Of a DNA stretch of 64,000 nt, positions 10,960-36,344 are shown piece by piece. The notes beneath the pieces were generated by a model. That model did no database searches, was not told the origin of the DNA, and saw only the letters and a program-made list of their open reading frames with translations. The stretch is taken from assembly GCA_965220275.1 (NCBI GenBank), contig CBDCPN010000019.1, forward strand, positions 89,036 to 153,035, written 5' to 3'. This DNA comes from Dehalococcoidia bacterium (GTDB taxonomy: Bacteria > Chloroflexota > Dehalococcoidia > Lucifugimonadales > Lucifugimonadaceae). Made by a program: the position numbers and the translations under genes. Position 1 is the stretch's first letter. Each line of letters opens with the position of its first letter.

Positions 10960-11001
10960 CCCACTTCGGACATGGACGCATAGAGACCGGGGACTTTGGT
11001 C

Positions 11002-12112: not shown

Positions 12113-12267
12113 CCGAATCACCCGAATACGGGGTACGCGTGAGGTTGGCCCAACGAACCGGCGGGGATCCGACCGACAGCGCTTAACCGGTCCACCGTAC
12201 CTGAGCGGGGTTGTAAAATCCGGTGCGGCATCTTGACATCAATGCAATTAGGCATCATGATGTCTAC

Positions 12268-19408: not shown

Positions 19409-19484
<76 letters not shown>

Positions 19485-19630
19485 AAGTGTACGGTTGACA
19501 GAACAGTCTTCGAACTCTGGCTCGGGGGTCTGTAATACCCGGCACCGCAGCTCCCGCGGCCCACGCCGGTTCTGTACGTTGGTAAGCTCTCTAGCGTGAG
19601 GGCCCGGCGCCACCAGGAGGAGGTCCAGCC

Positions 19631-20779
19631 ATGGTCGAGTGGCTTGGGATTGAGCACCTGTTCGAGCTTTCCACGGGAGATAAGGTCGCCGCCCTATTCA
19701 CCCCCCTCATAATCTTCATCGCCCTCTCGATCGCGACGGTGCTCCTGCCCGGCAAGTGGGTCCCCGGATACGCCACCGACGAAAGAACCGGCGAGCCCCG
19801 CAGGTACCGGCTCAACGGCCTCCTCGTCTTCGTCATCGCCAATCTCATCTGGGGCTTCGAGGTCATCCCAGGTCTGGGGCGCGATTGGTTCTACCGCACT
19901 TCGCTCTACGCAGTCGCCGGCGGCACCGGCTTCGCAGTGCTCTTCACGGCCATCGCCGTCTACACCCAGCCGAAGACCAGGGACCGCAACCCCTTTGTCG
20001 ACTTCTACGTGGGCCGCGTCCAGGAGATCCGCTTCTTCAACGACCGCCTCGACCTCAAGATGACCTTTTACGTTGTGGGCAGCACGATGCTCGGCATCAA
20101 TGCCATGTCGGGCGCGGCCTGGCACTACGAGCAGTTCAGCCCCACCAACGAAGTCAACCCCGGCGTCTTCGTCTACGCCGCCATTTTCACCTTCTACGTG
20201 TTCGACGACCACATCTTCGAGCGCGTCCGGCTCTACACCTATGACCTCATCCACGAGCGGATGGGCTTCAAGATGTTCTGGGGCGACAACATCGCCTACG
20301 GCTGGCTCTACATCCTCCCCCTGTACGGCATGGCCGCCTACCCCGACCCCGGCTTCTCGACCGCCTGGACCTACGTCTGGATCATCGGCGCCTCCGCCCT
20401 GTTCCTTGTCGGATGGGGCATAGCCCGGGGCGCCAACATCCAGAAGTACACCTTCAAGCGCTGGCCTGAACGCAAGTTCCTCGGGATCATCGAGCCCCGC
20501 TACATCCAGGCCGGCGACCGCAAGATCCTGACCAGCGGTTTCTGGGGCGTCGCCCGCCACTTCAACTACATGGGCGAGTTCCTCTTCGCCGTGGCGGTGG
20601 GCCTCTCCTTCGGATATTTTGGCGTCGCCTGGTCGTGGGCCTACCTGGCCTTCGCCGTCTGGTTGTTCACCTCGCGCCAGCGGCAGGACGACGTGGCCTG
20701 CGCCGAGAAGTACGGCCAGGAGAAGTGGGCCGAGTACCAGGAGAAGGTGCCGTACCGCATCATCCCCGGCATCTATTGA
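19631..20779 (+). CDS. ERG4/ERG24-family sterol reductase homologue (polytopic membrane NADPH reductase)
   Basis: 382-aa multi-TM protein. The C-terminus SGFWGVARHFNYMGEFLF ... SRQRQDDVACAEKYGQEKWAEYQEKVPYRIIPGIY matches the sterol reductase signature (..R..RD...C..KYG..W..Y...VPYR..P.IY), with a one-residue insertion. Confidence 0.8.
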   Translation: MVEWLGIEHLFELSTGDKVAALFTPLIIFIALSIATVLLPGKWVPGYATDERTGEPRRYRLNGLLVFVIANLIWGFEVIPGLGRDWFYRTSLYAVAGGTGFAVLFTAIAVYTQPKTRDRNPFVDFYVGRVQEIRFFNDRLDLKMTFYVVGSTMLGINAMSGAAWHYEQFSPTNEVNPGVFVYAAIFTFYVFDDHIFERVRLYTYDLIHERMGFKMFWGDNIAYGWLYILPLYGMAAYPDPGFSTAWTYVWIIGASALFLVGWGIARGANIQKYTFKRWPERKFLGIIEPRYIQAGDRKILTSGFWGVARHFNYMGEFLFAVAVGLSFGYFGVAWSWAYLAFAVWLFTSRQRQDDVACAEKYGQEKWAEYQEKVPYRIIPGIY

Positions 20780-21204
20780 TGCTGGCGGAGCCTGCGCCTG
20801 CGTTCGGGGCTAGTCCGTTTCCGCGCACGTCAGCAGGGGCTGGAGGTCGCCGACGACGAGGCGCGAGCGATGCTCGCCGAGCGTCGGGTGTTGCTGGACC
20901 GCGCGTAGACTGTCGCTGCCTTCGCCAAGGAGATGAGCGAGTTCCGGCAAACGAGCGCGACCACCGAGACGCGGGCGTTCGTGCGCTACTTCGTGAAGAA
21001 GATCATGGTCATCCCCGGCGCCGCTTCTATTCGCAACACGGCGCCTTTGCCGGACGACAGTCTTTTGGCCGGCCGGGCCAGCAAGATGTTAACCCTTGAA
21101 ACCTCGGTCCTGTCTACTGTCCACGTCGGTCCACGATCACTCCTCGCACTGCTATGTCTAAGGTCAGGCGTCCAGACGAAAATTTGAGCCTCTGCCTGGA
21201 ACTA

Positions 21205-22506: not shown

Positions 22507-25500
22507 ATGAAGATGGATGAACGGCTCGGTTCGCAGTCCGGCGAGCCCATCGCAATCGTGGGCATGGCGTGCAGGTTCCCGGGTGCGCCCGATGTAGACG
22601 CCTTCTGGCGCCTGCTTGAACGGGGTGAAAACGCGATTACCGAAGGCGTTCCCGGCTCAGGCGTCGGACGAATAGGTGAGTTTTACTCGGAGTCGGATAT
22701 TCAAAACGACGCCTCGCGGTTCGGGGCGTTCATCGATGGGATCGACCAATTTGATGCGGAGTTCTTCCGCATTTCGCCTGTCGAGGCTCAATTGCTGGAT
22801 CCTCAGCAGCGGCTGATGTTGGAAACGAGCTGGCAGGCCCTTGAGGACGCCGGTATTGACCCGGAGCGGCTGAAGGGTAGCCGCTCCGGGGTCTACATCG
22901 GCATCAGCAACATGGATTACCGCTTCATAAACATGGAATCCAGCCAGACCTCCGAGCCCGCCGCCAACCTCTACACGGTGAGCGGGACCTCCCTTAACAC
23001 CGCCGCCGGTCGGGTCGCCTTCGCCCTCGGACTTGAGGGTCCTGCAATGGCGGTGGACACCGCCTGTTCGTCCTCGCTGGTTGCGATCCACCAGTCCGTT
23101 TCGGCCCTGCAGCGGGGCGAGGCGAATCTGATCCTGGCCGGTGGGGTACAGGTAATTCTCTCCGGCCGGCTGACGGAGTTCCGCGCCAACGCCCGAATGT
23201 TATCGCCGGATGGCCAATGCAAGGCGTTCGACGCTTCAGCCAACGGTTTTGTTCGAGGCGAGGGCTGCGGCTTAGTGGTATTGAAGAGGCTCAGCGACGC
23301 GGAGGCTGACGGCGACCGAATCTGGAGCGTGATCCTTGGCTCCGCGCTCAACCAGGACGGGACCAGCACCGGACTCACGGTACCCAATGAACGGGCCCAG
23401 GCCGGCGTGATCGCCGACGCATTGGATCGCGCCGGTGTCGCTCCGTCTGAAGTGGACTACCTGGAAGCCCACGGCACGGGCACGGAGGTAGGCGACCCTA
23501 TCGAACTGAATGCCGCCGCGGCAGTGTACGGCGAAGGCAGGAATCCTGACCGCCCCCTGTTGGTCGGCTCCGTAAAAACGAATATCGGACACCTCGAGCC
23601 AACGGCCGGAGTCGCCGGTCTGATGAAGACTGTACTGTCGATTCAGAACCGGCAGATTCCCAAGCACCTGCACTTCCGGGACCCGAACCCGCGCCTGGAC
23701 TGGGACCGGCTGCCGGTAAAAATAGCCTCGGAACTGACCGAGTGGCCAGCCAGACCGGATCGTCCTCCGCGGGCGGGCATAAGCGCCTACGGGTGGTCGG
23801 GTACGAACGCCCACGTCATCGTCGAAGGTTACGGAGAGCCTGCCAACGGCTCCAACGCCGGTCGGGTTCCGTCGCGTCCCGTGGGCATCGCCCGAGCCGT
23901 TTCAGCCCCCCTGCAGGATTCGCCCAGCCGGGGAGAGTCGAATGGAGTCTGCATAGGAAGGCCTGCGAGGCTTCTACCTCTCTCGGCCAAGTCGAACGAA
24001 GCGCTGCAAGAGTTGTCGGGCCACTACCTTTCCTGGTTGGATGGGGGAACCGGAGAGTTCTCCCAAAACGGGTCTGTTGCGGGCCCGGACCTGGCAGACA
24101 TGGCCTGGACCGCAGGCGAAGGACGCAGCCACTTCGATTTCCGGGCCGGCGTGGTGTTCCGGGACATCGGTTCCCTGCGCGCCAACCTTGCTGAACTGGC
24201 GGCGTCGGATGATCCGCCGGAGATTCGCAAGGCATCGAAGGTGGCCTTTGCGTACACCGGCCAGGGCGTCCAGTGGCTGGGTATGGGAGAAGCCTTGTAC
24301 CAGTCCGAACCGGTGGCCCGCGCCGTGTTGGACCGTTGCGACCAGTTGATGCGTGAGGAGCGGGGAGCATCCCTGCTGGACGTGATGTTCGGCCGGCCCG
24401 AAGCGGCTGGCGATCTGGACGAACCGGCTTGGACACAACCGGCCGTATATGCCTTGGAATGTGCCCTTACCGCCCTATGGGCCAGCGTCGGAATCCGGCC
24501 GGACGTGGTGGTAGGCCACAGCCTTGGTGAAATCGCTGCGGCGCACACGGCAGGCGTGTTCTCCCTCGAAGACGGTCTACGGTTTGCCTGCACCCGTGGC
24601 GAATTGTTGGGATCTCTGCCGAGGGCCGGCGCCATGGCTGCGGTTTTCGCCCCGGCGAGCCGCGTATCTGAGGCAGTCGACGAATGGAATGAAGCCCACG
24701 CCGGCGCAGACATTTGTGTAGCCGTCGACAACGGTATGCACCAGGTGGTCAGTGGTCCCAAAGAGGAAGTCCACGCCTTTTCGGAGCATCTGGAGGCGTC
24801 CGCCGTAAACGTGACCCGCTTGCGGCCCAGCCCCGCCTACCACAGCCCGCTGGTAGAACCGGCTCTGGACGATTTGGAATCGTTTTTCTCTCACATCACG
24901 ATCAACCCCCCTGCCCTATCCCTGATCAGCAACATGACCGGCGGCGTCATGGGACCCGACGAAGCCCAGGATGGCCCCTACTGGCGACGCCACGCGCGTG
25001 AACCCGTGGCATTCCGCGATTGCGTGGCGACCCTGGCCGAATTGGGAGTGGACGCGGTAGTCGAGCTTGGCCCCCATCGCGTACTCGGCCCGCTTGTGTC
25101 CATGAACTGGCCGGAGGACGCAGGAAACGCCCAGCCCCCCGTCGTACTGCAAAGCCTTTTGCGCCCCTCCTTCGATGGGTCAGAACCCGAACGGGCCGAC
25201 GCCTTCGTACAGGCAGTGGCGGGCGCCTACGAAGCGGGCCTGCCCGTCTCCTTTGCCGGCCTGTTCGCCGGGGAGACCCGGCGACGGGTTGGTTTGCCGG
25301 GCTACCCGTTCCAGAGACGGCGGCACTGGGTAAAGCTGTCCGGGCGACGCCATCGCGCCGACGCCCATCCCCTGCTGGGTGTCCGGCACGAGTCACCGCG
25401 CGGTGAGATGATGTTCGAAACGGAGATGTCTCCTTTCGACCCGGACTGGCTTGACGATCATCGGGTTTACGGCCGGGTTGTCATGCCCGGCGCAGTCTAC

Positions 25501-28500
25501 GGCGCCATGGCAGCCTCGGTGTCCCTGGCCGACGGGACTGGTCCGGCGGTCGTCGAAGACTTGCAGTTGCACAACCCGCTGGTCTTCCCTGAGCAGGACG
25601 AAGAGAGCGAGTCTGACCCCCCAACACGACGGATGCAGTTAGTGCTGGATCCCTCCGAAAACAACCGACCACGCCATTTCGAAGTTTTCAGCAAAGGGGA
25701 GACTGAAGAGGCCTGGACCCTCCATGCGGAGGGAAGTTTGGCATCGAACGCGGCTAGATCGGGCAGTCAACAAGAGACTGACCTGGAAGCCTTGAAGGCA
25801 GGATTGCAACGGCAAGACCTGCGCGCCTACTACCAGGCCAAGGCGTCGACCGGTATCGACTTTGGCCCGCGTTTGCTTTCCCTGGAAGCCCTGTGGGGAC
25901 GCTCCGGCGAGGCGGTCGGCGATGTCGTCCTGCAGGACACCGGGGAAGGAATCGGGTCGTGGGTACACCCGTTGCTATTGGACGGCTGTTTCCAGGTACT
26001 TTCGGCGGCACGAGACCTGGCCGGCATGGGGTCAGGCGCAACCTACTTGCCTTTCGCCTGGGAGCGCCTGTCAGTGAACGGCCCGCTACCTGAGCGGTTG
26101 GTGTGCCATGCCCGAATGAGGGAAGTCGGTGGGGCAGCAGGCTCTGAACCCGCATCTTCTGAACAGCCGGAAACCCTGACCGGTGACCTGTGGTTCTACG
26201 ATTCAGAGGGAACTGCGCTTGGCGAATTGTCGGGGTTCATCGTAAAACGGGCGACGCGTGCTGCACTCCTATCCGCATCAGCGGGGTTGCAGGACATGCT
26301 CTACGAGACAGTCTGGCGGGAAAGCCCACTGCTAGACCGGTTGCAACCCGCCGACGCTCTTGCCGCACCGTCCACTGTCGCCACAGCCACCGGCACGTTT
26401 GGCGATTACCTTGCCCGCGAGGGAGTATCCCCGGAAGAGAGATCTGCTCTACTGGACGACCTCGAGCGGTTGTCTCGCGCCTACGCGCTCGCAGCCATGG
26501 ACCGGCTTGGCTGGGAGCGCCGACCGGGAGCGACTGTAGACCCTGAGTCACTGCGAGAACAGTTGAAGGTCCTCCCCGAACATTCAATATTGCTGGAGAG
26601 AATTCTGCGCCTGATGGCCGACGCGGGAATCCTGGACAGGGTCGGCGGAAATTACCTGGTCAAGATAGGCTCTGGAGACCCCCTGCCCGACAACACGCTG
26701 GCCGACCCCGATGCATTCAACGACCAGTTGACCGTGCAGCACCCCCACGGCTCCGTAGAGCTAGGGCTGTTGCGCAGAAGCGGAGGCGCGCTGGCCCCGG
26801 TGCTCCAGGGAGATACAGACCCCCTGTCCATCCTGTTCCCAAGGGAGGGGCCCGGCATTGCGGACTACTACTTCACCGCCCCAGCGTCTCGGGCTACAAA
26901 CCAGTTGCTGGGTGATGCCGTGGCTTCGGCCGTGGCCAACTGGCCGGAAGACCGGCCGTTGCGAATTCTGGAGGTGGGCGCCGGCACCGGGTCTGGTACT
27001 TCCGTAGTTTTGCCTGAACTGCAGCCCGGTAACTTCACTTACATGTTCACCGATATTTCGGCAGGGTTTTTCGCTGAAGCCGAGAACAGGTTTGGCGATT
27101 CGGAAGCCCCGCTGGAATACCGTGCCCTGGACATCGAGCGAAACCCCTGTGACCAGGGCTTTGATCTGCATGCCTATGACCTGGTTATCGCCGTCAATGT
27201 GCTGCATGCCACCCGAAACCTTGGAGAGACGCTGGCCAACTGCCGTGAGTTGATGGCGCCTTCGGGAAAGCTGATCGCGGTGGAAAACTTGCGGGGCCGG
27301 GGCTGGCAGGACATGGTGTTCGGGCAACTGGACGGCTGGTGGAGGTTCTCGGACGAATATCGCCCAGATCACGCACTCGCGTCGCCGCAGGTATGGCGGC
27401 GAGCCCTGGCCGATACCGGATTCGTGGAGTCGGCCGTCCTGGGAGGGGAGGCAGGGACAGACGAGAGGCCGATGGGGTCCGGAGTCGTCCTGGCCGAAGG
27501 GCCGCCTGAAGTCACGTGGCCGGCAGGGGCATGGGTGGTGGCCGGCGGCGGGGACAACGTTCCTGGAGAACTGGCGTCAGCCTTGGCGGACAAAAACCAG
27601 GCCGTAGTGCTGGCCGTCGCCGCAGCAGAAACCGGTAGAACTGCTGCCCCGGCGGGAATTCAGTGCGTGACAGTGGACCCGGACGACAGAAATTCCTGGC
27701 TCGACTTGTTGAATGGGCTGCCGGAGGACCTCCCACTGCGGGGCGTGGTGCATTGCTTCGCCACGGGAGGGCACGGAGTACAGGCTACTACGCAGGAAAT
27801 GGCGGAAGATGTCCGAACGGCCGGGCAGTCCGCCTTGACCCTTGCCCAGGCTTTGCAGGATGCAGACGTTTCGCTGGACAGTGGGTTTTGGTTGGTCACG
27901 GAAGGAGCGCAGGCACTGGAGCGGGACTACTTGCGCGAGAGTGCCGGCAATTTGGCCGGAGCCTCCCTGTGGGGACTGGGGAGGGTTGTGGCGCGGGAAG
28001 CAGCACATCTTTGTCCGCGGATGCTGGACCTGGACCCCGCGGATAAAACCCAGACAGATCACCTGGTCAATGAGCTGATGTTCCCCGACCCGGAAACTCA
28101 GGTAGCTTACCGGGACGGTCACCGCCTGGCAGCGCGCCTGGTCCGGAGTGGGTCGGCGAGAACAAGACTGGATTTGCCGGAAGAGCAAACCTGGCGCCTC
28201 ATGCCCGATGCAGAGGGAGCGTTGGAAGGACTGCACGCCGAACCAACGCAGCAACCGGACCTGCAGCCCGGGCAGGTGCGAGTGGAAGTGGAAGCAGCAG
28301 GCGTGAACTTCCTGGACGTGCTGCTCAGCCTCGGTGTCGTTGAATCGGCAGACCCTCGTCTGGGCGAAGAATTCTGCGGGCGGGTAGTGGAGGCGGCCCC
28401 GGACGTAACCGAGTTCGCCGCAGGCGACCGGGTGATCGGACTGGCCTTCGGCACATTTGGTCCAGAGGTCGTAACGCAGGCCGACCTGGTCGCGCCTGCC

Positions 28501-31500
28501 CCGGAGGGGATGTCGTCGGCAGCGCTGGCGACCATACCTTCGGCCTTCGTAAGCGCCGGGCTGAGTTTCGAAGAGGCTGACTTGAAACCCGGTGACCGCG
28601 TACTCATCCACACCGCCTCAGGCGGCGTGGGACTGGCTGCGGTCCAGTTGGCGCAGGCGGCAGGCCTCGAGGTATTCGCAACCGCAAGCGCCCCCAAGCG
28701 GCCATATCTCCGGTCATTGGGCATCGAGCACGTCTTCGATAGTCGAACAACCGGGTTCGGGCGGGAAATCCTGGAGGCCACCGGCGGCGTTGGCGTGAAC
28801 ATGGTGTTGAACAGCCTCACCGGTCCCGGGTTCATCGAGGACAGTCTGTCCTGCCTGGCTGACGGAGGCAGTTTCGTAGAGATGGGCAGGCGGGACATCT
28901 GGAACGCCGAGGAGATGGCAGCAGCGCGCCCCGATGTTTTCTATTACGTGCTGGAGTTGGATTGGCTAAAGAAAAATGACCCCGCCAGACCGGGATCCGT
29001 GCTGCGTGACGTGATGCAGATGATGACGTCAAGCGCATTGAAGCCGCTGGCACACACGCGATGGCCAATAGCCGAAGCCGGAGCCGCCATGGGGTTTATG
29101 CAATCGGCGAGGCACATCGGAAAGAACGTGCTCGTAATGCCGCCCGTCACCGGCGGTCAGTTGCGGCCTGATCGTACTTACCTGGTCACCGGAGGCATGG
29201 GGGGCATCGGCATCGAAGTGGCCAAGTGGCTCGCAGACCTCGGGGCCGGCGTGATAGTCCTGAATGGGCGCAGACCCCCGGACGATGAGGCCGAACAGGC
29301 CATAGAAGCCCTCAGGCAGCGCGGCGCCGACGTTCGGGTGGAGTTGGCCGACATGACCGACCCTGAAGCGGTTGATGCCATGTTGGCCCGCATTGATGCC
29401 GAAATGCCCGACATTGCCGGTGTCATCCACAGCGTGGGAGTGTTGTCAGACGCCGCGCTGGGCAACCAGACCTGGGAACGATTCGAACAGGTGTTGTGGC
29501 CCAAAATCCTGGGAGCGTGGCATCTGCACCGGGCCACCCTGGACCGCGATCTTGACCTGTTCGTCCTCTTCAGCAGCATTACCGGGGTTTTGGGTAACTC
29601 CGGTCAGGGCAACCACGCCGCGGCCAATACCTTCCTGGACCAACTTGCCGAGTACCGCAGATCTCTGGGACTTCCCGGCCAGGCGATAGCGTGGGGAGCC
29701 TGGTCAGGATTGGGTGAGGCCGAAGAACAGAGAGAAAGGATCGAACGGCAACTCGAATCATCGGGGACTGGCTGGATTAGTCCAAACCAGGGCCTCGACG
29801 CATTCGACCAGGTGGTCCGACGCGATCTGACCTCCTGCATGGTGGCGGCGGTGGATTGGCCGGTCTTCACCGAGAAATTTGAAGACGCCCCAAAATTCCT
29901 GGAAGACTTGATCACCAGCGGGTCGGAGTCTGAGGAGGACGACGCCGAGTCGTCCGGTCCGGTCGATCTGATGTCGGAGTTCAGGCAAAGCGCACCCGCG
30001 GACCGGCAAGGCGTGGTCGTTGCCTTCGTACAGCAGGAATTGCAGGCGGTGATGAGGATGCCGTCAGTACCTGCCCCGACGGTTGGTTTCTTCGAGTTGG
30101 GAATGGACTCATTGGTGGCGGTCGAGTTCCGCAACCGGTTGAACAGGTCCCTGGCGGGTGACTACGTAGTATCCAATACCGCTGTATTCGATTACCCGAC
30201 AGTCGACGACCTCGCACGCCATCTGTCGGAGGAACTCAACCAGGTGGCAGGGGACGAATCGCCTGAAGCAATCCAGGACAGTCCTGCCCGGGCGACCGTC
30301 CCGCCGGTAAGCCGCGATCCCCAGGAGGACGCCATAGCCATTGTGGGAATGGCCTGCCGCTTCCCCGGCGCGCCGGACCTTTCGGCTTATTGGGACCTGT
30401 TGGAAGCCGGGAGATCCGCAATAACGGACGGTAGACAGGACCGGGGGACCTGGGATGGCCTGACCGGAGACCCGGCCGCCAAGGACGCGGCTTACCGCAG
30501 GGGCGGTTTTGTCGAAGGGCTTGACCAATTTGACGCCAGGTTCTTCCGTATTGCGCCGATTGAAGCTCGAATGATGGACCCCCAGCAGCGGATGTTGCTG
30601 GAGACTAGTTGGCAAGCCCTGGAAGATGCCGCGATCAACCCGGACAGGCTTAGAGGCAGTCGCACCGGGGTCTATGCCGGGGTAGGCAGCGCCGAATACA
30701 GGGACCTCATTGCAGCAGGGGGACAGGAAGACAGTTACCTGGGAACGGCTGCAAGCGTGGCAGTGGGTCGAGTTGCCTTCGCCCTTGGCCTCGAGGGACC
30801 GGCTATGCCGGTGGATCTGGCATGCGCGTCATCCCTGGCCGCAGTGCACCAGGCGGCCGAGGCGCTTCGCCGGAGTGAAGTGGACCTGGCCATTGCCGGC
30901 GGCGTCAACGCGACTTTGTCGCAGGGGTTCACGAGGTTCCACAAGGACATAGGCATGTTGTCCGCCTCCGGACATTGCAACGCCTTCGACGCCGCTGCCG
31001 ACGGTTACATCCGGGGCGAAGGCTGTGGGGTAGTGGTCCTGAAACGGCTTGGCGATGCGGAAGCCGACGGCGACCGCATCTGGGGACTGATTAGAGGCTC
31101 AGCGGTCAACCAGAACGGCGCCAGCGCCGCGTTGACGGTGCCCAACGGCCCGGCCCAGGAACGGGTGATGGAGGCGGCCCGCACGCAGGCGGGCGTCAAC
31201 CCGTCCGATGTCGACTACCTGGAGGCGCACGCGGTGGGCTCGCAGTTGGGAGACCCTATTGAGCTTAATGCTGTCGCATCGGTTTACGGCAGAGAGCGCG
31301 ACAGTCAACGTCCACTTTTGATTGGAACGGTCAAGTCGAACATCGGACACGTTGAATGGGCGGCAGGAATAGCCGGTTTCATCAAGACCGTCCTCTCCAT
31401 GAAAAAGGGAGTGATTCCCGAGAGTCTGCACTTCAAAACCCCGAACCCAAACGTCAACTGGGAACAAGTACCGGTGAAAGTGACGTCCGGTCGAACAGTC

Positions 31501-32805
31501 TGGCCGACCGTCTCAGGTCGAGCGCCACTGGCTGGTGTAAACGCGTTTGGTCTTTCCGGAGCAAACGCGCACGTACTGGTCGAAGGCTATGGACCACCTG
31601 AGGCTGAGGCCGAAATGAGTAACGGCGCCCGTTTACCAATTGGTAGTCCACTGGCAATTCCGGCTTCACTCGCGGAATCGGTTAACGATGATTCCAGGTC
31701 CGCGGAAGGAATGGCGGCTCGTGCCACCCGTCTGTTGCCGCTATCGGGCAAGTCAGAAGGCGCGCTTCGTGATCTCGCGGGTAGGTACTTGTCATGGCTA
31801 GGAGGAAATTCAGAGGAATTGCGTCTTGAAGGCGCTGCTGCCGACTCGGCCCTTGCAGACATGGCCTGGACAGCCGGAGAGGGACGGAGTCATTTCGAAT
31901 TCCGGTCGGGCCTCGTGTTCCGTGATGCTGCCCATTTGCAAGCAAAACTGGAAGCCCTCGCTGAAGCCGTCAAACCCTCGCAGACGACGATTCAAACGGC
32001 CGCGAAAGTGGCTTTTCTCTACGGAGGCCAGGGCGGCCGGTGGAAGGAAACTGCAGAGACCCTGTACTTGGCGGAACCTGTGGTGCGCGAAGTATTGGAT
32101 CGTTGCGATCGACTGTCACGCGACGAGATGGACTTTTCCCTGCTGGAGGCAATGTTCGGCCAACCCGACGACTCCGGGATTCCTGCCGACCTGGCCTGGC
32201 AGGCGCCGGCCGTCTATGCGTTCGAATGCGCGCTCACTGAACTTTGGGCAGGAGTGGGGGTACGGCCCACAGTGGTTTTGGGCCGCGGTACCGGTGAGAT
32301 CGCGGCGGCACAGGCGGCCGGAGTCCTAACTCTGGAAGATGGGCTGCGGGTCGCGTTGCAAGTGGGCAGGCCCGAATCGTCACTACCGACGATAGACGCG
32401 TTGCCGCCGGCCCTCACGTGGGTCAGCAGCGCAACCGGGCGCGTATTGCAACCGGACGAAAAGCTGGACCAGGACCACTGGAGAAACCTAGCTCAGCCGA
32501 CACAGCACTTCAGCCAGTGCATCCAGACGTTGTCTGAGTTGCACGTGGACGCGATCGTGGAGGTCGGAACCCAGGGTCTCCGTTCAGACGTAACGCCCCC
32601 TCGACCGGAGTCTCGCGAAAACGGGCGAAAACCGGTCTTGATTGAATCCACGTTTGGCAACGGCTACGGAGGTTTCGTGAAAGCCGTGGGGGCAGCATAT
32701 GAAGCCGGACTGTCGATTTCTTTCAAGGGGTTATTCGCCGGTGAGACGCGGCGGCGAGTTTCGTTGCCTGCATATCCGTTCCAGCGAAAGCGGTTCTGGA
32801 TCTAG
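22507..32805 (+). CDS. Type I polyketide synthase, 3432 aa: KS-AT-DH-cMT-(psiKR)-ER-KR-ACP-KS-AT0. It has no C-terminal ACP or TE.
   Basis: All domain motifs were read from the translation. KS1: DTACSSS(C187), EAHGTGT(H322), NIGHLE(H362). AT1: GHSLGE(S672), AYHS. DH: HRVYGRVVMP(H985), DFGP, LLDGCFQ. cMT: ILEVGAGTGSGT. ER: HTASGGVGLAAVQLA. KR: TGGMGGIG, WPK, FSS, but NHAAAN. ACP: LGMDSL(S2535). KS2: DLACASS(C2773), EAHAVGS(H2908), NIGHVE(H2948). AT2 has GRGTGE in place of GHSxGE. Confidence 0.95.
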   Translation: MKMDERLGSQSGEPIAIVGMACRFPGAPDVDAFWRLLERGENAITEGVPGSGVGRIGEFYSESDIQNDASRFGAFIDGIDQFDAEFFRISPVEAQLLDPQQRLMLETSWQALEDAGIDPERLKGSRSGVYIGISNMDYRFINMESSQTSEPAANLYTVSGTSLNTAAGRVAFALGLEGPAMAVDTACSSSLVAIHQSVSALQRGEANLILAGGVQVILSGRLTEFRANARMLSPDGQCKAFDASANGFVRGEGCGLVVLKRLSDAEADGDRIWSVILGSALNQDGTSTGLTVPNERAQAGVIADALDRAGVAPSEVDYLEAHGTGTEVGDPIELNAAAAVYGEGRNPDRPLLVGSVKTNIGHLEPTAGVAGLMKTVLSIQNRQIPKHLHFRDPNPRLDWDRLPVKIASELTEWPARPDRPPRAGISAYGWSGTNAHVIVEGYGEPANGSNAGRVPSRPVGIARAVSAPLQDSPSRGESNGVCIGRPARLLPLSAKSNEALQELSGHYLSWLDGGTGEFSQNGSVAGPDLADMAWTAGEGRSHFDFRAGVVFRDIGSLRANLAELAASDDPPEIRKASKVAFAYTGQGVQWLGMGEALYQSEPVARAVLDRCDQLMREERGASLLDVMFGRPEAAGDLDEPAWTQPAVYALECALTALWASVGIRPDVVVGHSLGEIAAAHTAGVFSLEDGLRFACTRGELLGSLPRAGAMAAVFAPASRVSEAVDEWNEAHAGADICVAVDNGMHQVVSGPKEEVHAFSEHLEASAVNVTRLRPSPAYHSPLVEPALDDLESFFSHITINPPALSLISNMTGGVMGPDEAQDGPYWRRHAREPVAFRDCVATLAELGVDAVVELGPHRVLGPLVSMNWPEDAGNAQPPVVLQSLLRPSFDGSEPERADAFVQAVAGAYEAGLPVSFAGLFAGETRRRVGLPGYPFQRRRHWVKLSGRRHRADAHPLLGVRHESPRGEMMFETEMSPFDPDWLDDHRVYGRVVMPGAVYGAMAASVSLADGTGPAVVEDLQLHNPLVFPEQDEESESDPPTRRMQLVLDPSENNRPRHFEVFSKGETEEAWTLHAEGSLASNAARSGSQQETDLEALKAGLQRQDLRAYYQAKASTGIDFGPRLLSLEALWGRSGEAVGDVVLQDTGEGIGSWVHPLLLDGCFQVLSAARDLAGMGSGATYLPFAWERLSVNGPLPERLVCHARMREVGGAAGSEPASSEQPETLTGDLWFYDSEGTALGELSGFIVKRATRAALLSASAGLQDMLYETVWRESPLLDRLQPADALAAPSTVATATGTFGDYLAREGVSPEERSALLDDLERLSRAYALAAMDRLGWERRPGATVDPESLREQLKVLPEHSILLERILRLMADAGILDRVGGNYLVKIGSGDPLPDNTLADPDAFNDQLTVQHPHGSVELGLLRRSGGALAPVLQGDTDPLSILFPREGPGIADYYFTAPASRATNQLLGDAVASAVANWPEDRPLRILEVGAGTGSGTSVVLPELQPGNFTYMFTDISAGFFAEAENRFGDSEAPLEYRALDIERNPCDQGFDLHAYDLVIAVNVLHATRNLGETLANCRELMAPSGKLIAVENLRGRGWQDMVFGQLDGWWRFSDEYRPDHALASPQVWRRALADTGFVESAVLGGEAGTDERPMGSGVVLAEGPPEVTWPAGAWVVAGGGDNVPGELASALADKNQAVVLAVAAAETGRTAAPAGIQCVTVDPDDRNSWLDLLNGLPEDLPLRGVVHCFATGGHGVQATTQEMAEDVRTAGQSALTLAQALQDADVSLDSGFWLVTEGAQALERDYLRESAGNLAGASLWGLGRVVAREAAHLCPRMLDLDPADKTQTDHLVNELMFPDPETQVAYRDGHRLAARLVRSGSARTRLDLPEEQTWRLMPDAEGALEGLHAEPTQQPDLQPGQVRVEVEAAGVNFLDVLLSLGVVESADPRLGEEFCGRVVEAAPDVTEFAAGDRVIGLAFGTFGPEVVTQADLVAPAPEGMSSAALATIPSAFVSAGLSFEEADLKPGDRVLIHTASGGVGLAAVQLAQAAGLEVFATASAPKRPYLRSLGIEHVFDSRTTGFGREILEATGGVGVNMVLNSLTGPGFIEDSLSCLADGGSFVEMGRRDIWNAEEMAAARPDVFYYVLELDWLKKNDPARPGSVLRDVMQMMTSSALKPLAHTRWPIAEAGAAMGFMQSARHIGKNVLVMPPVTGGQLRPDRTYLVTGGMGGIGIEVAKWLADLGAGVIVLNGRRPPDDEAEQAIEALRQRGADVRVELADMTDPEAVDAMLARIDAEMPDIAGVIHSVGVLSDAALGNQTWERFEQVLWPKILGAWHLHRATLDRDLDLFVLFSSITGVLGNSGQGNHAAANTFLDQLAEYRRSLGLPGQAIAWGAWSGLGEAEEQRERIERQLESSGTGWISPNQGLDAFDQVVRRDLTSCMVAAVDWPVFTEKFEDAPKFLEDLITSGSESEEDDAESSGPVDLMSEFRQSAPADRQGVVVAFVQQELQAVMRMPSVPAPTVGFFELGMDSLVAVEFRNRLNRSLAGDYVVSNTAVFDYPTVDDLARHLSEELNQVAGDESPEAIQDSPARATVPPVSRDPQEDAIAIVGMACRFPGAPDLSAYWDLLEAGRSAITDGRQDRGTWDGLTGDPAAKDAAYRRGGFVEGLDQFDARFFRIAPIEARMMDPQQRMLLETSWQALEDAAINPDRLRGSRTGVYAGVGSAEYRDLIAAGGQEDSYLGTAASVAVGRVAFALGLEGPAMPVDLACASSLAAVHQAAEALRRSEVDLAIAGGVNATLSQGFTRFHKDIGMLSASGHCNAFDAAADGYIRGEGCGVVVLKRLGDAEADGDRIWGLIRGSAVNQNGASAALTVPNGPAQERVMEAARTQAGVNPSDVDYLEAHAVGSQLGDPIELNAVASVYGRERDSQRPLLIGTVKSNIGHVEWAAGIAGFIKTVLSMKKGVIPESLHFKTPNPNVNWEQVPVKVTSGRTVWPTVSGRAPLAGVNAFGLSGANAHVLVEGYGPPEAEAEMSNGARLPIGSPLAIPASLAESVNDDSRSAEGMAARATRLLPLSGKSEGALRDLAGRYLSWLGGNSEELRLEGAAADSALADMAWTAGEGRSHFEFRSGLVFRDAAHLQAKLEALAEAVKPSQTTIQTAAKVAFLYGGQGGRWKETAETLYLAEPVVREVLDRCDRLSRDEMDFSLLEAMFGQPDDSGIPADLAWQAPAVYAFECALTELWAGVGVRPTVVLGRGTGEIAAAQAAGVLTLEDGLRVALQVGRPESSLPTIDALPPALTWVSSATGRVLQPDEKLDQDHWRNLAQPTQHFSQCIQTLSELHVDAIVEVGTQGLRSDVTPPRPESRENGRKPVLIESTFGNGYGGFVKAVGAAYEAGLSISFKGLFAGETRRRVSLPAYPFQRKRFWI
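22543..23832 (+). other. PKS domain: ketosynthase 1 (Cys-His-His triad intact)
   Basis: Runs from EPIAIVGMACRFPG to NAHVIVEGY. The Cys codon is at 23065-23067. Confidence 0.9.
24238..25095 (+). other. PKS domain: acyltransferase 1 (active; GHSLGE suggests malonyl-type, but the specificity motif is the atypical AYHS)
   Basis: FAYTGQG, GHSLGE (Ser codon 24520-24522), AYHS and VELGPH. The post-AT linker YPFQRRRHW follows. Confidence 0.85.
25366..26275 (+). other. PKS domain: dehydratase (motifs intact)
   Basis: HPLLG, HxxxGxxxxP (His codon 25459-25461), a G.DFGP motif and LLDGCFQ. Confidence 0.85.
26848..27430 (+). other. PKS domain: C-methyltransferase (SAM-dependent)
   Basis: LRILEVGAGTGSGT (motif I), followed by DLVIAVNVLHAT and GKLIAVE. 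It sits between DH and ER, as in methylating highly reducing PKSs. Confidence 0.85.
28190..29141 (+). other. PKS domain: enoylreductase (MDR type, NADPH motif intact)
   Basis: GQVRVEVEAAGVNFLD and HTASGGVGLAAVQLAQAAG. Confidence 0.85.
29172..29715 (+). other. PKS domain: ketoreductase catalytic subdomain. Lys and Ser are present, but the catalytic Tyr position is His.
   Basis: TYLVTGGMGGIGIEVAKWL, LSD (B-type-like), WPK and FSS. GQGNHAAAN has codon CAC at 29614-29616, where canonical KRs have Y in the YAAAN motif. Confidence 0.8.
30004..30237 (+). other. PKS domain: integrated ACP
   Basis: FFELGMDSLVAVEFRNRL. The phosphopantetheine Ser codon is at 30109-30111. Confidence 0.88.
30328..31590 (+). 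other. PKS domain: ketosynthase 2 (Cys-His-His retained)
   Basis: Runs from DAIAIVGMACRFPG to NAHVLVEGYG. The Cys codon is at 30823-30825. Flanking linkers are near-duplicates of those around KS1. Confidence 0.88.
32005..32580 (+). other. PKS domain: degenerate, truncated acyltransferase (AT0)
   Basis: GRGTGE (32281-32298) aligns to GHSxGE, so the nucleophile Ser is replaced by Gly and the His by Arg. There is no xAxHS motif. The domain is about 95 aa shorter than AT1. The post-AT linker YPFQRKRFWI is retained as the protein C-terminus. Confidence 0.75.
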
Positions 32806-34916: not shown

Positions 34917-36344
34917 GTGAATAACGCCAGCGAATTTTTTGGGGATTCGTGGTCAATGGCAACCGGCCGGAAAAAGACGAAGTTGCGCCGCATAGCCATA
35001 GTTGGAGGCGGCATTTCCGGGTTGGGGGCGGCATGGGCTATGAACCGGCACCCGGACCGTTTTGACTTCCGCCTGTATGAGGCCCAGTCTCGAATCGGCG
35101 GGAACGCAGTAACGGCGGATATGCCGCAAGATGACGGCTCTTCAATCCCGTTCGACATTTCCGTCACCGCCTGCATCCCATCCGTATATCACCACATCCT
35201 CCTCCTGATGCAGCGGTACGGCATCGATCTGGTCGACACCAGGTTCAGCTACAGCGTGAAGTACCGCGGCCAGGTATACGCCCACGACTTCGACTCTGAG
35301 ATCAGGGAACAGCTACAACCAGAGATCGCAAAGTTCCAGCGGATCTTGAAACGCCTGCACTGGTTCGGCGCTCTGAGCCGGTCCCGGTCAAAGTGCGTGA
35401 ACGCCCTCAACCCGCTCAACTACGTGAGCATGGGCACCGTCCTGAACCTCGCAGGACTATCCGGGGATTTTCGCTACAAGGTGCTGAAGCCCATGTTCGT
35501 CAATTTCCTGATGGCGACCAATGTGTTCGACATGCCGGCCGCCCTTTTCGCCAGGTATCTCGAATTCTTCGACATTGAGACCGCCACGACGATGCACACC
35601 TGGGACAGGGGAACACGGAACATCTACGAACACTTGTCCGCCGACTTCAGGGACAAGATATACCTCAACCGTCCTGTACGAAAAGTGTATCGACGGCCTT
35701 TCGGGGTTGAGATCGAAGACGAAAATGGCGTTAAGGAAACCTATGACGACGTGATATTTGCGTGTAACGCAAATCAGACCTTGATGATCCTGGACAAGCC
35801 CACGTTATTGGAGCGATACACACTCTCCTCGGTCCGTTATGAAAGTGAACTACACAACCACACGCTTGTTCACTGGGACTCGTCAGTACTGCCGGATAAC
35901 GAAGTGAGGCCGTTGGAAACGCGTAGCAATCACATAGAACAATACGGCGTGAGACCAGACAACTATGAAATCACCTACATCATGCACAACCAGCAGCCAT
36001 GGGTCAGCCGGTCAGACAAGCCGTGCCTGGTAACTTACAACCCCATAAGTGAGATAGATCGCGGAAAAGTCGTCGGGAGGTGGTGGTTCCAACACATCGT
36101 GCATGACGTTCGCCATGTCGCACTGCTGATTCCTATGTTCCGGTTCATCCAGGGCAAGCGCCGGACCTGGCACTGCGGCGCTCACACGCTGGTCAACAGC
36201 CAGGAGACATGTTTCGTAAGCGGGCTCGCAGCAGCGAAGCAGATCGGCGCTGATTATCCGTTCGAAGACCCCGAGGCGAGGCGGTCCTTCAACTACTACG
36301 GGGGCATCATGTTTGGGTGGCGCTTCAAAAAGGCCAAGGGCTGA
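34917..36344 (+). CDS. FAD/NAD(P)-binding oxidoreductase, amine-oxidase/phytoene-desaturase-like (COG2907 type)
   Basis: RIAIVGGGISGLGAAWAM...YEAQSRIGGN dinucleotide-binding motif. 475 aa. The start may instead be the ATG at 34956. Confidence 0.75.
   Translation: MNNASEFFGDSWSMATGRKKTKLRRIAIVGGGISGLGAAWAMNRHPDRFDFRLYEAQSRIGGNAVTADMPQDDGSSIPFDISVTACIPSVYHHILLLMQRYGIDLVDTRFSYSVKYRGQVYAHDFDSEIREQLQPEIAKFQRILKRLHWFGALSRSRSKCVNALNPLNYVSMGTVLNLAGLSGDFRYKVLKPMFVNFLMATNVFDMPAALFARYLEFFDIETATTMHTWDRGTRNIYEHLSADFRDKIYLNRPVRKVYRRPFGVEIEDENGVKETYDDVIFACNANQTLMILDKPTLLERYTLSSVRYESELHNHTLVHWDSSVLPDNEVRPLETRSNHIEQYGVRPDNYEITYIMHNQQPWVSRSDKPCLVTYNPISEIDRGKVVGRWWFQHIVHDVRHVALLIPMFRFIQGKRRTWHCGAHTLVNSQETCFVSGLAAAKQIGADYPFEDPEARRSFNYYGGIMFGWRFKKAKG

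What the first reader, a model, noticed from the sequence alone, without database searches (positions are those of the whole stretch)
19631..20779. ERG4/ERG24-family sterol reductase homologue immediately downstream of tRNA-Met
The C-terminal 60 residues reproduce the sterol reductase signature, including the terminal VPYRIIPGIY (compare the VPYRIFPYIY I recall for lamin B receptor/TM7SF2-type enzymes). There is a one-residue insertion in KYG-x3-W. The upstream LNPR signature is divergent (QEIR).

In eukaryotes this family reduces the C14, C7 or C24(28) double bonds of sterols. In this locus it is the natural partner of the SMT, as an ERG4-like 24(28)-reductase. It lies 18 kb away from the SMT, on the other side of the PKS.
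Basis: partly seen in the sequence, partly recalled or inferred. Interest (0 to 1): 0.65.

Follow-up and report, generated by a model that had tools for sequence, protein, structure and literature searches.

The report
Sponge-symbiont sterol-type reductase, new clade

Summary
ORF 19631-20779 (+, 382 aa) lies 146 bp downstream of tRNA-Met. It scores 129 bits on Pfam ERG4_ERG24 (DUF1295 scores 34), and its only significant structural match is MaSR1.

The ERG4 interpretation is not supported. With verified references, ERG4, ERG24/TM7SF2/FK/MaSR1 and DHCR7 form a clan that excludes this protein in 200/200 bootstraps. ERG4 is its most distant reference (23% identity).

It is also not the reductase that sits in operons with CYP51 and OSC in sponge symbionts. 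That one is a separate clade, closer to the canonical enzymes.

The window protein belongs to a tight clade found only in sponge-associated MAGs of three phyla, and every full-length member carries the KYG-x3-W insertion. Its subclade moves as a ~1.3-kb solo cassette. Copies in Acidimicrobiia and Dehalococcoidia are 93-95% identical, with dS about 0.09.

Ten of 11 carrier MAGs with published cluster calls lack the sterol core cluster.

The putative catalytic Tyr and the NADPH-binding residues are conserved, and dN/dS is 0.18-0.45. Neighbours that recur across lineages all point to a sterol or triterpenoid substrate: OSC, an SSD transporter, a P450, SMT, a KshA-like Rieske oxygenase, 3β-HSD and squalene/phytoene synthase.

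Best reading: an accessory NADPH-dependent sterol double-bond reductase whose regiospecificity is unresolved.

The parts
19409..19484 (+). tRNA-Met (CAT), intact, immediately upstream of the reductase cassette
   Evidence: ARAGORN and Rfam tRNA at 73.8 bits. No direct repeat of its 3' end occurs elsewhere in the window. L011, L082 and L085 share the tRNA 3' end or spacer plus the reductase junction.
19554..19630 (+). Conserved 5' leader of the mobile cassette, including the Shine-Dalgarno AGGAGGAGG at 19615-19623
   Evidence: DNA similarity of 89-95% to at least 12 loci with unrelated flanks begins at window position 19554/19555. No Rfam family matches. No sigma-70-like promoter was found.
19631..20779 (+). 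ERG4/ERG24-family NADPH-dependent reductase (382 aa) of a sponge-symbiont clade. Putative catalytic Y189 and E316; NADPH-pocket residues N269, K272, N312, R349, D353, K360, Y361, W366, Y369
   Evidence: Pfam 129 bits. MaSR1 4QUV at E = 1e-32. AF2 model with pLDDT 75 whose only significant PDB match is 4QUV, TM 0.67. Residue mapping. dN/dS 0.18-0.45. GC3 of 0.91, the highest in the window.
20780..20913 (+). Conserved 3' trailer of the cassette; its right boundary varies between loci
   Evidence: blastn similarity ends between 20790 and 20913 in loci with unrelated contexts. No intrinsic terminator was detected.
36614..38668 (+). GPP34-cytochrome P450 fusion, a candidate partner (inferred). It is not a CYP51
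   Evidence: Pfam GPP34 + p450. Only 87 bits to CYP51 structures. No GQHTS or B'-helix CYP51 motifs. A 54%-identical orthologue lies directly next to the reductase in L021. A 74%-identical orthologue lies next to a complete sterol operon in L109/L095.
38712..39749 (-). Sterol methyltransferase, convergent with the P450; a candidate pathway neighbour (inferred)
   Evidence: Pfam Sterol_MT_C 54.8 bits plus methyltransferase domains. A 72%-identical orthologue is paired with the GPP34-P450 in L109/L095.
39990..41063 (-). KshA-like Rieske oxygenase; a candidate pathway neighbour (inferred)
   Evidence: Pfam Rieske + KshA_C and KshA structures. It is 56% identical over its full length to the Rieske gene immediately downstream of the P0130 reductase in a gammaproteobacterial operon.
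41429..42271 (+). Short-chain dehydrogenase next to the Rieske gene; context only
   Evidence: Pfam adh_short.
34917..36344 (+). Flavin amine-oxidase-family protein; context, recurs in OSC loci
   Evidence: Pfam Amino_oxidase. LkcE is the best PDB match. Orthologues at 68-81% identity occur in OSC-bearing loci L109, L114, L116 and L145.
22507..32805 (+). 3432-aa type I PKS (KS-AT-DH-MT-ER-KR-ACP-KS...), lying between the reductase and the sterol-tailoring genes; context
   Evidence: Pfam. Related PKSs abut the reductase in L014 and in L015, the latter with a PPTase and a hydrolase.

Best explanation
The gene encodes a polytopic membrane, NADPH-dependent C=C reductase with the MaSR1 / sterol-reductase fold. 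It most likely saturates one double bond of a sterol or closely related triterpenoid.

The inferred mechanism is the family's proposed one: Tyr189 protonates the olefin, assisted by Glu316, and NADPH held in the conserved C-terminal pocket transfers a hydride.

It is not the pathway's core C14 reductase and it is not an ERG4 orthologue. It belongs to a separate, uncharacterised branch of the ERG4/ERG24 family. Its own clade is restricted to sponge-associated bacteria. The window's subclade spreads between phyla as a ~1.3-kb single-gene cassette.

Most carriers lack the OSC-CYP51 core cluster. The enzyme is therefore best read as an accessory sterol-tailoring reductase, useful on its own. It would act on sterols the cell makes, where an OSC is present (as in L021), or on sterols obtained from the sponge host or community.

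Shown: family, fold, conserved residues, purifying selection, phylogenetic position, distribution, horizontal transfer and neighbourhoods.

Inferred: sterol as the substrate, the accessory role, and use of exogenous sterols. The bond reduced is unknown.
For: Family and fold: Pfam ERG4_ERG24 129 bits. MaSR1 at E = 1e-32. Foldseek's only significant hit is 4QUV, TM 0.67.

Catalytic and NADPH residues: positions equivalent to MaSR1 Y241, N316, K319, N359, R395, D399, K406, Y407, W411 and Y414 are kept, and D363 is Glu. Their roles come from PMC12489058 and PMC4951196.

Selection: dN/dS 0.18-0.45.

Phylogeny: the canonical clan excludes the window protein in 200/200 bootstraps. The operon-type reductases group with the canonical clan and exclude the window protein in 100/100. 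The references were verified by exact look-up.

Not the operonic reductase: reductases just upstream of CYP51(AGQHTS)-SE/OSC in sponge metagenomes are 28-32% identical to the window protein. They keep 36-38 of 39 canonical positions, against 26 for the window protein.

Distribution and transfer: all 80 genome loci are sponge-associated MAGs of Chloroflexota, Actinomycetota and Gemmatimonadota. Nucleotide identity of 89-95% is confined to window 19554 to about 20900 in unrelated contexts. Acidimicrobiia copies nest inside Dehalococcoidia copies, with dS 0.084-0.093.

Carriers mostly lack the core cluster: 10 of 11 Kelly et al. MAGs are 'CSG present = No'. The eleventh has both reductase types on one contig.

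Sterol-type neighbours in independent lineages:
- L021: reductase, GPP34-P450, MMPL/sterol-sensing transporter, SE-OSC fusion.
- L001: SMT 8 kb away.
- Subclade D: SQS_PSY within 5 kb in 7 of 17 loci.
- Subclades B/C: a 3β-HSD-family gene nearby in L002/L061, L022, L020 and L024.
- Outgroup P0130: operon of sulfotransferase, three SDRs, SRPBCC, reductase and a KshA-like Rieske gene that is 56% identical to the window's Rieske.

Precedent: Coxiella has orphan sterol reductases acting on host sterols (PMC8787468).
Against: - No member of this branch has been characterised. Substrate and regiospecificity rest on homology and neighbourhood only.
- Roughly 50 of about 68 full-length loci have no lipid gene within 5-10 kb.
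- The clade has lost the N-P of the LNPR motif and the second Arg of R-x2-R-D, positions that are near-invariant in characterised sterol reductases. The substrate pocket may therefore differ.
- 'CSG absent' in Kelly's table means the three-gene cluster is absent. It does not prove the OSC is absent, and L021 shows an OSC in a non-CSG arrangement.
- The trees are neighbour-joining on about 350 columns without an outgroup, and the ERG4 branch is long.
- The AF2 model is of moderate confidence: pLDDT 75, with residues 286-306 and the last 8 residues below 50.
Confidence: 0.6

Rival explanations
1. One reading: the enzyme reduces the 24(28) (or another side-chain) double bond created by the SMT. 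It would be a functional analogue of yeast ERG4, although not its orthologue.
For: An SMT lies in the same 64-kb window. An SMT lies 8 kb from the 90%-identical copy in L001. The window's SMT and GPP34-P450 form a conserved convergent pair, also seen in L109/L095, and that P450 is directly adjacent to the reductase in L021.

From established yeast biochemistry, ERG6 (SMT), ERG5 (P450 C22-desaturase) and ERG4 act as a side-chain trio, and ERG4 reduces one bond of a conjugated diene.

No ERG4-clade gene was seen in the sponge OSC loci, so a side-chain reductase slot is open.
Against: ERG4 is the most distant reference, at 23% identity and E = 1e-13. The window protein groups with it in 0 of 200 bootstraps.

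Bacterial ERG4 homologues next to SMTs reported by Brown et al. are 34-41% identical to yeast ERG4, with E = 1e-81 to 1e-113. That is a different class.

An SMT is within 10 kb in only one other genome out of about 68 full-length loci. L021 has no SMT within 10 kb.
Confidence: 0.22
2. Database annotation (IMG/KEGG 'delta14-sterol reductase'): it is the pathway's C14 reductase, removing the Δ14 bond left by sterol 14-demethylation.
For: JGI names two homologues 'delta14-sterol reductase'. The best solved relative is the C14 reductase MaSR1. In L021 it is the only ERG4/ERG24 gene within 10 kb of the OSC. No contig longer than 1 Mb is shared between the operon-type and window-type hit lists, though both lists are truncated.
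Against: A different, canonical-like reductase occupies the position next to bona fide CYP51 and OSC in sponge-symbiont operons.

Both types occur on one contig in MAG jk18x34bins.13.

Ten of 11 carrier MAGs lack the ERG24-CYP51-LSS cluster, so a Δ8,14 substrate would usually be missing.

The only P450 seen next to it lacks CYP51 motifs. That P450 also coexists with a true CYP51 in L109.
Confidence: 0.15
3. It reduces a non-sterol lipid, for example an enoyl or polyene intermediate of the neighbouring PKS, a squalene- or carotenoid-type isoprenoid, or a polyprenol.
For: A large PKS lies next to the reductase in the window, L014 and L015. The subclade-D neighbour is a squalene/phytoene synthase, which could serve carotenoids. 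The wider superfamily (DUF1295, SRD5A, ICMT) acts on other lipids, and DUF1295 also scores 34 bits. The clade's substrate-side motifs diverge from those of sterol reductases. Most carriers lack the sterol core cluster.
Against: Several independent sterol-specific neighbours are found: an SE-OSC fusion, a sterol-sensing-domain transporter, SMT, a KshA-like Rieske gene and a 3β-HSD-family gene. The PKS carries its own ER domain. PKS adjacency is limited to three related genomes. No ERG4/ERG24-family member is known to me to act on non-sterols (own knowledge).
Confidence: 0.13

Closest known systems
MaSR1 (Methylotuvimicrobium alcaliphilum Δ14-sterol reductase, PDB 4QUV) and eukaryotic C14 reductases (ERG24, TM7SF2, LBR, FACKEL)
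   Same: Same Pfam family and fold: E = 1e-32 and TM 0.67. The putative catalytic Tyr and the NADPH-pocket residues N316, K319, N359, R395, D399, K406, Y407, W411 and Y414 are conserved.
   Different: Identity is only 26-28%. The window protein lies outside their clan in 200/200 bootstraps. LNPR becomes QEIR, R398 becomes Q, M266 becomes K, P276 becomes G, F312 becomes A and D363 becomes E, and there is an extra residue in KYG-x3-W. The N-terminus is shorter (382 aa against 427). The gene is not in an operon with CYP51 and OSC.
Yeast ERG4, the C-24(28) sterol reductase
   Same: Same superfamily and C-terminal motif architecture. Possibly a comparable pathway position next to an SMT and a P450.
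   Different: It is the most distant verified reference, at 22.9% identity and E = 1e-13. It is 473 aa with an N-terminal extension. It never groups with the window protein.
Operon-type 'ERG24' of sponge-symbiont steroid gene clusters (Kelly et al. 2022; Brown et al. 2023)
   Same: Same habitat and host phyla, similar length (357-377 aa), the same D363E change, and the same NCBI label 'DUF1295 domain-containing protein'.
   Different: Identity is 28-32%. These proteins are a separate clade that sides with the canonical reductases in 100/100 bootstraps. They keep LNP, M266, P276, F312 and R398. They are always found immediately upstream of CYP51-SE/OSC. The window type is mostly a stand-alone gene.
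Coxiella burnetii Stmp1/CBU1206 and CBU1158, orphan sterol reductases of a host-associated bacterium
   Same: These are ERG4/ERG24-family reductases carried by host-associated bacteria that lack sterol synthesis. They were acquired horizontally and are thought to modify host sterols (PMC8787468). This matches the pattern of 10 of 11 carrier MAGs lacking the core cluster.
   Different: The Coxiella genes are reported as eukaryote-like Δ24 and Δ7 homologues. I had no sequences for them, so their position relative to this clade was not tested. Some carriers of the window type do have an OSC (L021).
Uncharacterised 'non-canonical' ERG4/ERG24 branch (for example Monosiga A9VAA6, chytrid and MMETSP proteins; Gammaproteobacteria P0130)
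   Same: These are the nearest relatives, at 35-46% identity. They share M266K, D363E and the loss of R398.
   Different: About 95% of that branch has Phe at the catalytic-Tyr position, whereas the window clade has Tyr. Only the window clade has lost the N-P of LNPR and gained KYG-x3-W.

Membership tests
ERG4/ERG24 superfamily (Pfam PF01222) | Full-length match to the family HMM above the gathering score, and better than to the related families DUF1295 and ICMT | tested here: met
   129.1 bits against a cut-off of 27, over residues 21-382. DUF1295 scores 34.3 bits and ICMT 16 bits, below its cut-off.
ERG4/ERG24 superfamily (Pfam PF01222) | Multi-pass membrane fold of MaSR1 with a C-terminal NADPH pocket | tested here: met
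   AF2 model with pLDDT 75.2 and pTM 0.76. Foldseek against the PDB finds only 4QUV as significant, with TM 0.67 and probability 1.0.
ERG4/ERG24 superfamily (Pfam PF01222) | NADPH-binding residues (MaSR1 N359 and R395, equivalent to LBR N547 and R583) and the K/Y/W/Y C-terminal block | tested here: met
   N312, R349, K360, Y361, W366 and Y369 are present and invariant across the clade. Their roles come from PMC4951196.
ERG4/ERG24 superfamily (Pfam PF01222) | Putative catalytic pair Tyr241/Asp363 (MaSR1 numbering) | tested here: inconclusive
   The Tyr is kept (Y189). The Asp is replaced by Glu (E316), as in the operon-type reductases. The roles are predicted rather than proven (PMC12489058).
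Canonical sterol reductases (PROSITE-type signatures 1 and 2, patterns recalled from memory) | G-x2-[LIVM]-[YH]-D-x-[FYWI]-x-G-x2-L-N-P-R and [LIVM]2-[HR]-R-x2-R-D-x3-C-x2-K-Y-G-x2-[WY]-x2-Y | tested here: not met
   By regex, both patterns match ERG4, ERG24, TM7SF2 and P0252, and neither matches the window protein. They also miss human DHCR7 and Apium FK, so they are not strict criteria.
ERG4 clade (C-24(28) reductase) | Groups with ERG4 in a phylogeny, or is closest to ERG4 among the references | tested here: not met
   22.9% identity and E = 1e-13, the weakest of four verified references. Outside the clan that contains ERG4 in 200/200 bootstraps.
ERG4 clade (C-24(28) reductase) | Reduces Δ24(28) sterols; complements erg4Δ | not testable with these tools
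   This needs yeast complementation or an enzyme assay.
C14-reductase clade (ERG24/TM7SF2/LBR/FK/MaSR1) | Groups with C14 reductases in a phylogeny | tested here: not met
   Excluded in 200/200 NJ bootstraps, and in 100/100 when the operon-type sequences are added.
C14-reductase clade (ERG24/TM7SF2/LBR/FK/MaSR1) | In bacteria: genomic coupling to CYP51 and OSC | tested here: not met
   In the 12 sponge-type SE-OSC loci that carry an upstream reductase (L095-L113), that reductase belongs to the other lineage. Only 1 of about 68 window-type loci (L021) has an OSC within 10 kb, and it has no CYP51 there. Ten of 11 carrier MAGs lack the cluster.
DHCR7 clade (C7 reductase) | Groups with DHCR7 in a phylogeny | tested here: not met
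   30.8% identity and E = 1e-27. Excluded together with the rest of the canonical clan.
DUF1295 (PF06966), the NCBI label for its homologues | Best or sole match is DUF1295 | tested here: not met
   DUF1295 matches only residues 210-373 at 34 bits, lying under the much stronger ERG4_ERG24 hit.
Sponge-symbiont window-type clade (defined here) | KYG-x3-W insertion, loss of the N-P of LNPR, Tyr kept at the catalytic position, about 379-382 aa, sponge-associated MAG source | tested here: met
   KYG-x3-W occurs in 119 of 119 full-length hits and is absent in P0124 and P0130. The clade is recovered in 200/200 bootstraps. All 80 genome loci are sponge-associated MAGs.

The most novel reading that the evidence does not exclude
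The clade is a fourth functional class of ERG4/ERG24 reductases, distinct from the C14, C7 and C24(28) types. It spreads as a single-gene cassette among unrelated sponge symbionts because it is useful alone. It would saturate a double bond in sponge-host or community sterols, or complete side-chain tailing together with the SMT and GPP34-P450 module. If so, bacteria that cannot make sterols would help shape sponge sterol profiles, which bears on who makes the precursors of 'sponge' sterane biomarkers.
Probability: 0.3. Interest if true: 0.75.

Novelty: new variant of a known kind. Interest (0 to 1): 0.55.

Why it matters
Sponge sterols, and the steranes derived from them, are used as the oldest animal biomarkers. 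Whether bacterial symbionts make or remodel them is an open and actively debated question (Brown et al. 2023; Kelly et al. 2022).

This work separates two things that current annotation lumps together as 'TM7SF2/ERG24' or 'DUF1295':
- An operonic, canonical-like reductase tied to CYP51 and OSC.
- A second, uncharacterised clade that is sponge-symbiont-specific, multi-copy in some genomes, transferred between phyla, and mostly present in genomes without the core sterol cluster.

This gives a concrete candidate enzyme for bacterial remodelling of sterols in sponges. It also gives a direct test: express the gene in sterol-producing E. coli or in yeast erg mutants. More generally, family-level annotation here would mislead a pathway reconstruction.

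Tried and rejected
- Exact look-up of the window reductase and of its P450 (P0505) in the contig index found nothing, so the source sample is unknown.
- NCBIfam gave no meaningful family.
- Names for cluster representatives were mostly missing. I therefore typed four reference sequences from memory and verified them as exact database entries before using them.
- The 2026 '8,14-Bsr' bacterial sterol reductase turned out to be an NTF2-fold protein, so it is irrelevant here.
- The window's P450 is not the CYP51 partner. It scores weakly against CYP51 structures, lacks the signature motifs, and coexists with a true CYP51 in L109.
- An island integrated at tRNA-Met is not supported, because there is no repeat of the tRNA 3' end in the window.
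- A riboswitch or known RNA in the conserved leader was ruled out: no Rfam hit. No sigma-70 promoter or intrinsic terminator was found.
- Phage or plasmid carriage of the cassette was not found.
- Genome-level co-occurrence by contig-length fingerprints was inconclusive, because the hit lists are capped at 120. There was no overlap with operon-type reductase contigs and one overlap (926,758 bp) with GPP34-P450 contigs.
- PhyH (21205-22191) has no homologue near any other copy, so it is not part of the unit.
Full report
**1. Observation**

Window 19631-20779 (+) is an intact 382-aa ORF. An AGGAGGAGG ribosome-binding site lies 7 nt upstream of its ATG. tRNA-Met(CAT) lies at 19409-19484, 146 bp upstream.

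The protein matches Pfam ERG4_ERG24 at E = 2.5e-37 and 129 bits (cut-off 27) over residues 21-382. DUF1295 gives 34 bits over the C-terminal half only, and ICMT falls below its cut-off.

The best solved relative is the bacterial Δ14-sterol reductase MaSR1 (4QUV, E = 1e-32). An AlphaFold2 model (pLDDT 75, pTM 0.76) has 4QUV as its only significant PDB match (TM 0.67).

The SMT (38712-39749, -) is 17.9 kb away, beyond a 3432-aa PKS.

**2. Which reductase is it?**

Source names in the protein database were too sparse to label clades. I therefore wrote yeast ERG4, yeast ERG24, human TM7SF2 and human DHCR7 from memory and submitted them to an exact-sequence look-up. All four are exact database entries carrying those names, so they are verified references.

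BLASTP of the window protein against them:

| Reference | Identity | E-value |
|---|---|---|
| TM7SF2 | 27.9% | 1e-29 |
| DHCR7 | 30.8% | 1e-27 |
| ERG24 | 25.9% | 7e-25 |
| ERG4 | 22.9% | 1e-13 |

ERG4 is the most distant.

An exhaustive HMMER search of 1.84 billion cluster representatives shows the window's clade collapsing to one 50%-identity cluster. Its next relatives are at 46% (P0124) and 38% (P0130). About 100 representatives follow at 35-40% identity. Canonical reductases appear only near the bottom of the top 150.

In a neighbour-joining tree (349 columns, 200 bootstraps):
- ERG4, DHCR7, TM7SF2, ERG24, plant FK and MaSR1, plus eight representatives, form a clan that excludes the window protein in 200/200 replicates. 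The exact split is recovered in 188/200.
- The window clade is recovered in 200/200 replicates.
- P0124 is its sister in 190/200, and P0130 plus P0142 join next in 179/200.

The protein is therefore outside all three characterised subfamilies. It sits in a large uncharacterised branch that also holds proteins from Monosiga, chytrids, marine protist transcriptomes and other bacteria.

**3. It is not the operonic 'ERG24' of sponge symbionts either**

Kelly et al. (PMC9531527) described ERG24-CYP51-LSS clusters (CSGs) in sponge symbionts. Brown et al. (PMC10070321) described similar clusters that include SMTs.

I fetched 80 OSC-bearing metagenome loci. In the sponge-derived ones, the reductase just upstream of a bona fide CYP51 (helix-I AGQHTS) and a fused squalene epoxidase-OSC is only 28-32% identical to the window protein. 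Its best hits are the canonical group.

In a tree with these sequences added, the operon-type reductases form their own clade (86/100). That clade sides with the canonical clan and excludes the window protein in 100/100 replicates.

They keep 36-38 of 39 positions that are near-invariant in canonical enzymes. The window protein keeps 26.

Signature positions in MaSR1 numbering:

| Group | LNPR motif | 241 | 266 | 276 | 312 | 363 | 398 |
|---|---|---|---|---|---|---|---|
| Canonical | LNPR | Y | M | P | F | D | R |
| Operon-type | LNP | Y | M | P | F | E | R |
| Window | QEIR | Y | K | G | A | E | Q |

**4. Is it a working enzyme?**

The residues reported to bind NADPH are present. MaSR1 N359 and R395 correspond to LBR N547 and R583, whose mutation abolishes NADPH binding (PMC4951196). 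In the window protein they are N312 and R349. The N/Q/K block and the K-Y...W...Y block are also present.

The predicted catalytic Tyr241 (PMC12489058) is Y189. Most of the non-canonical branch, including the nearest outgroups, has Phe at this position, but the window clade keeps Tyr. The partner residue Asp363 is Glu.

Pairwise dN/dS against ten close copies is 0.18-0.45. The gene is under purifying selection and has the equipment for NADPH-dependent olefin reduction.

**5. Distribution and mobility**

The protein database holds more than 120 clusters at 64-92% identity, all about 379-382 aa.

A scan of 185,579 species-representative genomes returned 80 loci. All are sponge-associated MAGs: Dehalococcoidia/Tepidiformaceae, Acidimicrobiia (including 'Ca. 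Spongiisocius') and Gemmatimonadota/Longimicrobiales.

Within the clade, subclades at 57-86% identity show conserved, lineage-specific synteny.

The window's own subclade (87-95% identity) behaves differently:
- It sits in a different context in nearly every genome.
- Nucleotide identity of 89-95% is confined to window 19554 to about 20800-20913. That is 76 nt of leader, the ORF, and up to about 130 nt of trailer.
- Three Acidimicrobiia copies, one of them on a 1.08-Mb contig, nest among Dehalococcoidia copies with dS of only 0.084-0.093. 'Native' Acidimicrobiia copies form a distant clade, and one MAG carries both kinds.
- Several genomes carry two copies, and about 15 public contigs end inside the gene.
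- GC3 is 0.91, the highest in the window.

This is recent cross-phylum horizontal transfer of a ~1.3-kb single-gene unit. I found no vehicle for it: no viral contig, no plasmid, no att repeat of the tRNA and no Rfam element.

**6. What does it act on?**

Several independent neighbourhoods point to sterols or triterpenoids:
- **L021.** On a complete 2.8-Mb Tepidiformaceae chromosome, a 92%-identical copy is followed by a GPP34-P450 fusion, an MMPL/sterol-sensing-domain transporter and a squalene epoxidase-OSC fusion.
- **L001.** An SMT lies 8 kb away.
- **Subclade D.** A squalene/phytoene synthase lies within 5 kb in 7 of 17 loci. This matches the 'ERG24-FDFT1 doublets' that Kelly et al. mention.
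- **Subclades B/C.** A 3β-HSD-family gene recurs nearby in L002/L061, L022, L020 and L024.
- **P0130.** This gammaproteobacterial outgroup sits in an operon of sulfotransferase, three SDRs, SRPBCC, reductase and a KshA-like Rieske gene. That Rieske protein is 56% identical over its full length to the window's own Rieske gene at 39990-41063.

The window's GPP34-P450 and SMT form a conserved convergent pair. In L109/L095 the pair sits beside a complete operon containing a true CYP51. The P450 is therefore an extra tailoring enzyme and not the 14-demethylase.

**7. Core or accessory?**

Kelly et al.'s Table S1 records the presence of the three-gene core cluster for each MAG. Of the 11 MAGs in that table that carry a window-type copy, 10 are scored 'No', at 86-97% completeness. 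The dataset-wide frequency of the cluster is 115 of 537.

The one 'Yes' MAG (jk18x34bins.13) has the core cluster at 136-142 kb and the window-type gene at about 157-158 kb of the same contig.

So the gene is not tied to de novo synthesis, and where both reductase types are present they coexist. This argues against the database label 'Δ14 reductase'. It favours an accessory reductase that is useful on its own, like the orphan sterol reductases of Coxiella that act on host sterols (PMC8787468).

One caveat: 'cluster absent' does not prove 'OSC absent', as L021 shows.

**8. Verdict**

The gene is a genuine ERG4/ERG24-family reductase. It belongs to a previously undistinguished, sponge-symbiont-specific, horizontally spreading clade.

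Relatedness to ERG4 is rejected, and so is identity with the operonic C14 reductase.

The most likely function is an accessory NADPH-dependent sterol double-bond reductase. This reading includes the side-chain option.

| Reading | Confidence |
|---|---|
| Accessory sterol double-bond reductase, bond unresolved | 0.6 |
| Δ14 reduction | about 0.15 |
| Non-sterol substrate | about 0.13 |

Limits of this analysis: the trees are neighbour-joining and lack an outgroup, genome-level co-occurrence could only be sampled, and no biochemistry exists for any member of this branch.

Noticed in passing
window 36614-38668 (+); also L021:11360-13378, L109:16536-18605, L095:9150-11219: An N-terminal GPP34 (GOLPH3-like, phosphoinositide-binding in eukaryotes) domain is fused to a cytochrome P450 that lacks CYP51 motifs. 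The fusion is a very large family: 2091 hits at E < 1e-40, with the top 120 all at least 72% identical and about 675 aa long, spread across Nitrospira, Dehalococcoidia, Deltaproteobacteria and other sponge MAGs. It forms a convergent pair with an SMT.
   Followed up: partly
window 34917-36344 (+): A flavin amine-oxidase-family gene whose best PDB match is the PKS-tailoring enzyme LkcE. It nevertheless has 68-81% identical orthologues in OSC-bearing loci L109, L114, L116 and L145. It may belong to squalene or sterol metabolism (HpnE-like?) rather than to the adjacent PKS.
   Followed up: partly
window 22507-34856; L014:3-9719; L015:1-8280: A 3432-aa type I PKS (KS-AT-DH-MT-ER-KR-ACP-KS...), followed by a PPTase and an α/β-hydrolase, resembles the small methyl-branching PKSs of sponge symbionts. 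Related PKSs directly abut the reductase in two other genomes.
   Followed up: partly
window 19554-19630 and 20780-20913; L001, L007-L015, L021: The leader (76-150 nt) and trailer (up to about 130 nt) are conserved along with the ORF, and there are two upstream junction types. One type is shared by the window, L011, L082 and L085 and begins at a tRNA 3' end. L011 keeps only a tRNA 3' remnant. L021 has tRNA-Asn just upstream of its copy.
   Followed up: partly
L009, L018, L012 at locus position 10001: In the three Acidimicrobiia copies of the transferred cassette, the ATG start codon is replaced by ATC (L009, L018) or ATA (L012), while the rest of the ORF stays intact.
   Followed up: no
L087:10001-10078 (4.39-Mb Spongiisociaceae contig); L088: A 78-bp remnant is 98% identical to the last 26 codons of the gene plus 11 nt of trailer, in the middle of a long contig. 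It looks like a decayed copy of the cassette.
   Followed up: no
L029, L065, L072-L086: About 15 public MAG contigs end inside this gene. This is the pattern expected when near-identical copies in several co-assembled genomes break the assembly.
   Followed up: partly
L090 (ENA ERZ18545484), 5485-12133: A gammaproteobacterial operon of sulfotransferase, SDR, SDR, SRPBCC, SDR, ERG4/ERG24 reductase (P0130) and a KshA-like Rieske gene. It looks like an undescribed steroid-modifying (possibly sulfating) pathway.
   Followed up: partly
window 53197-53850 (+): A 217-aa protein with a strong match to the eukaryote-type phospholipid Scramblase family (PF03803, 145 bits). This is another eukaryote-like membrane-lipid protein in this bacterium.
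   Followed up: no
window 19631-20779 versus 19694-20560 (-): The window's own reductase is absent from the 5.8-billion-protein collection, whereas its P450 is present (as P0505). The gene may not have been called in the source annotation. A 288-aa antisense shadow ORF overlaps it.
   Followed up: no
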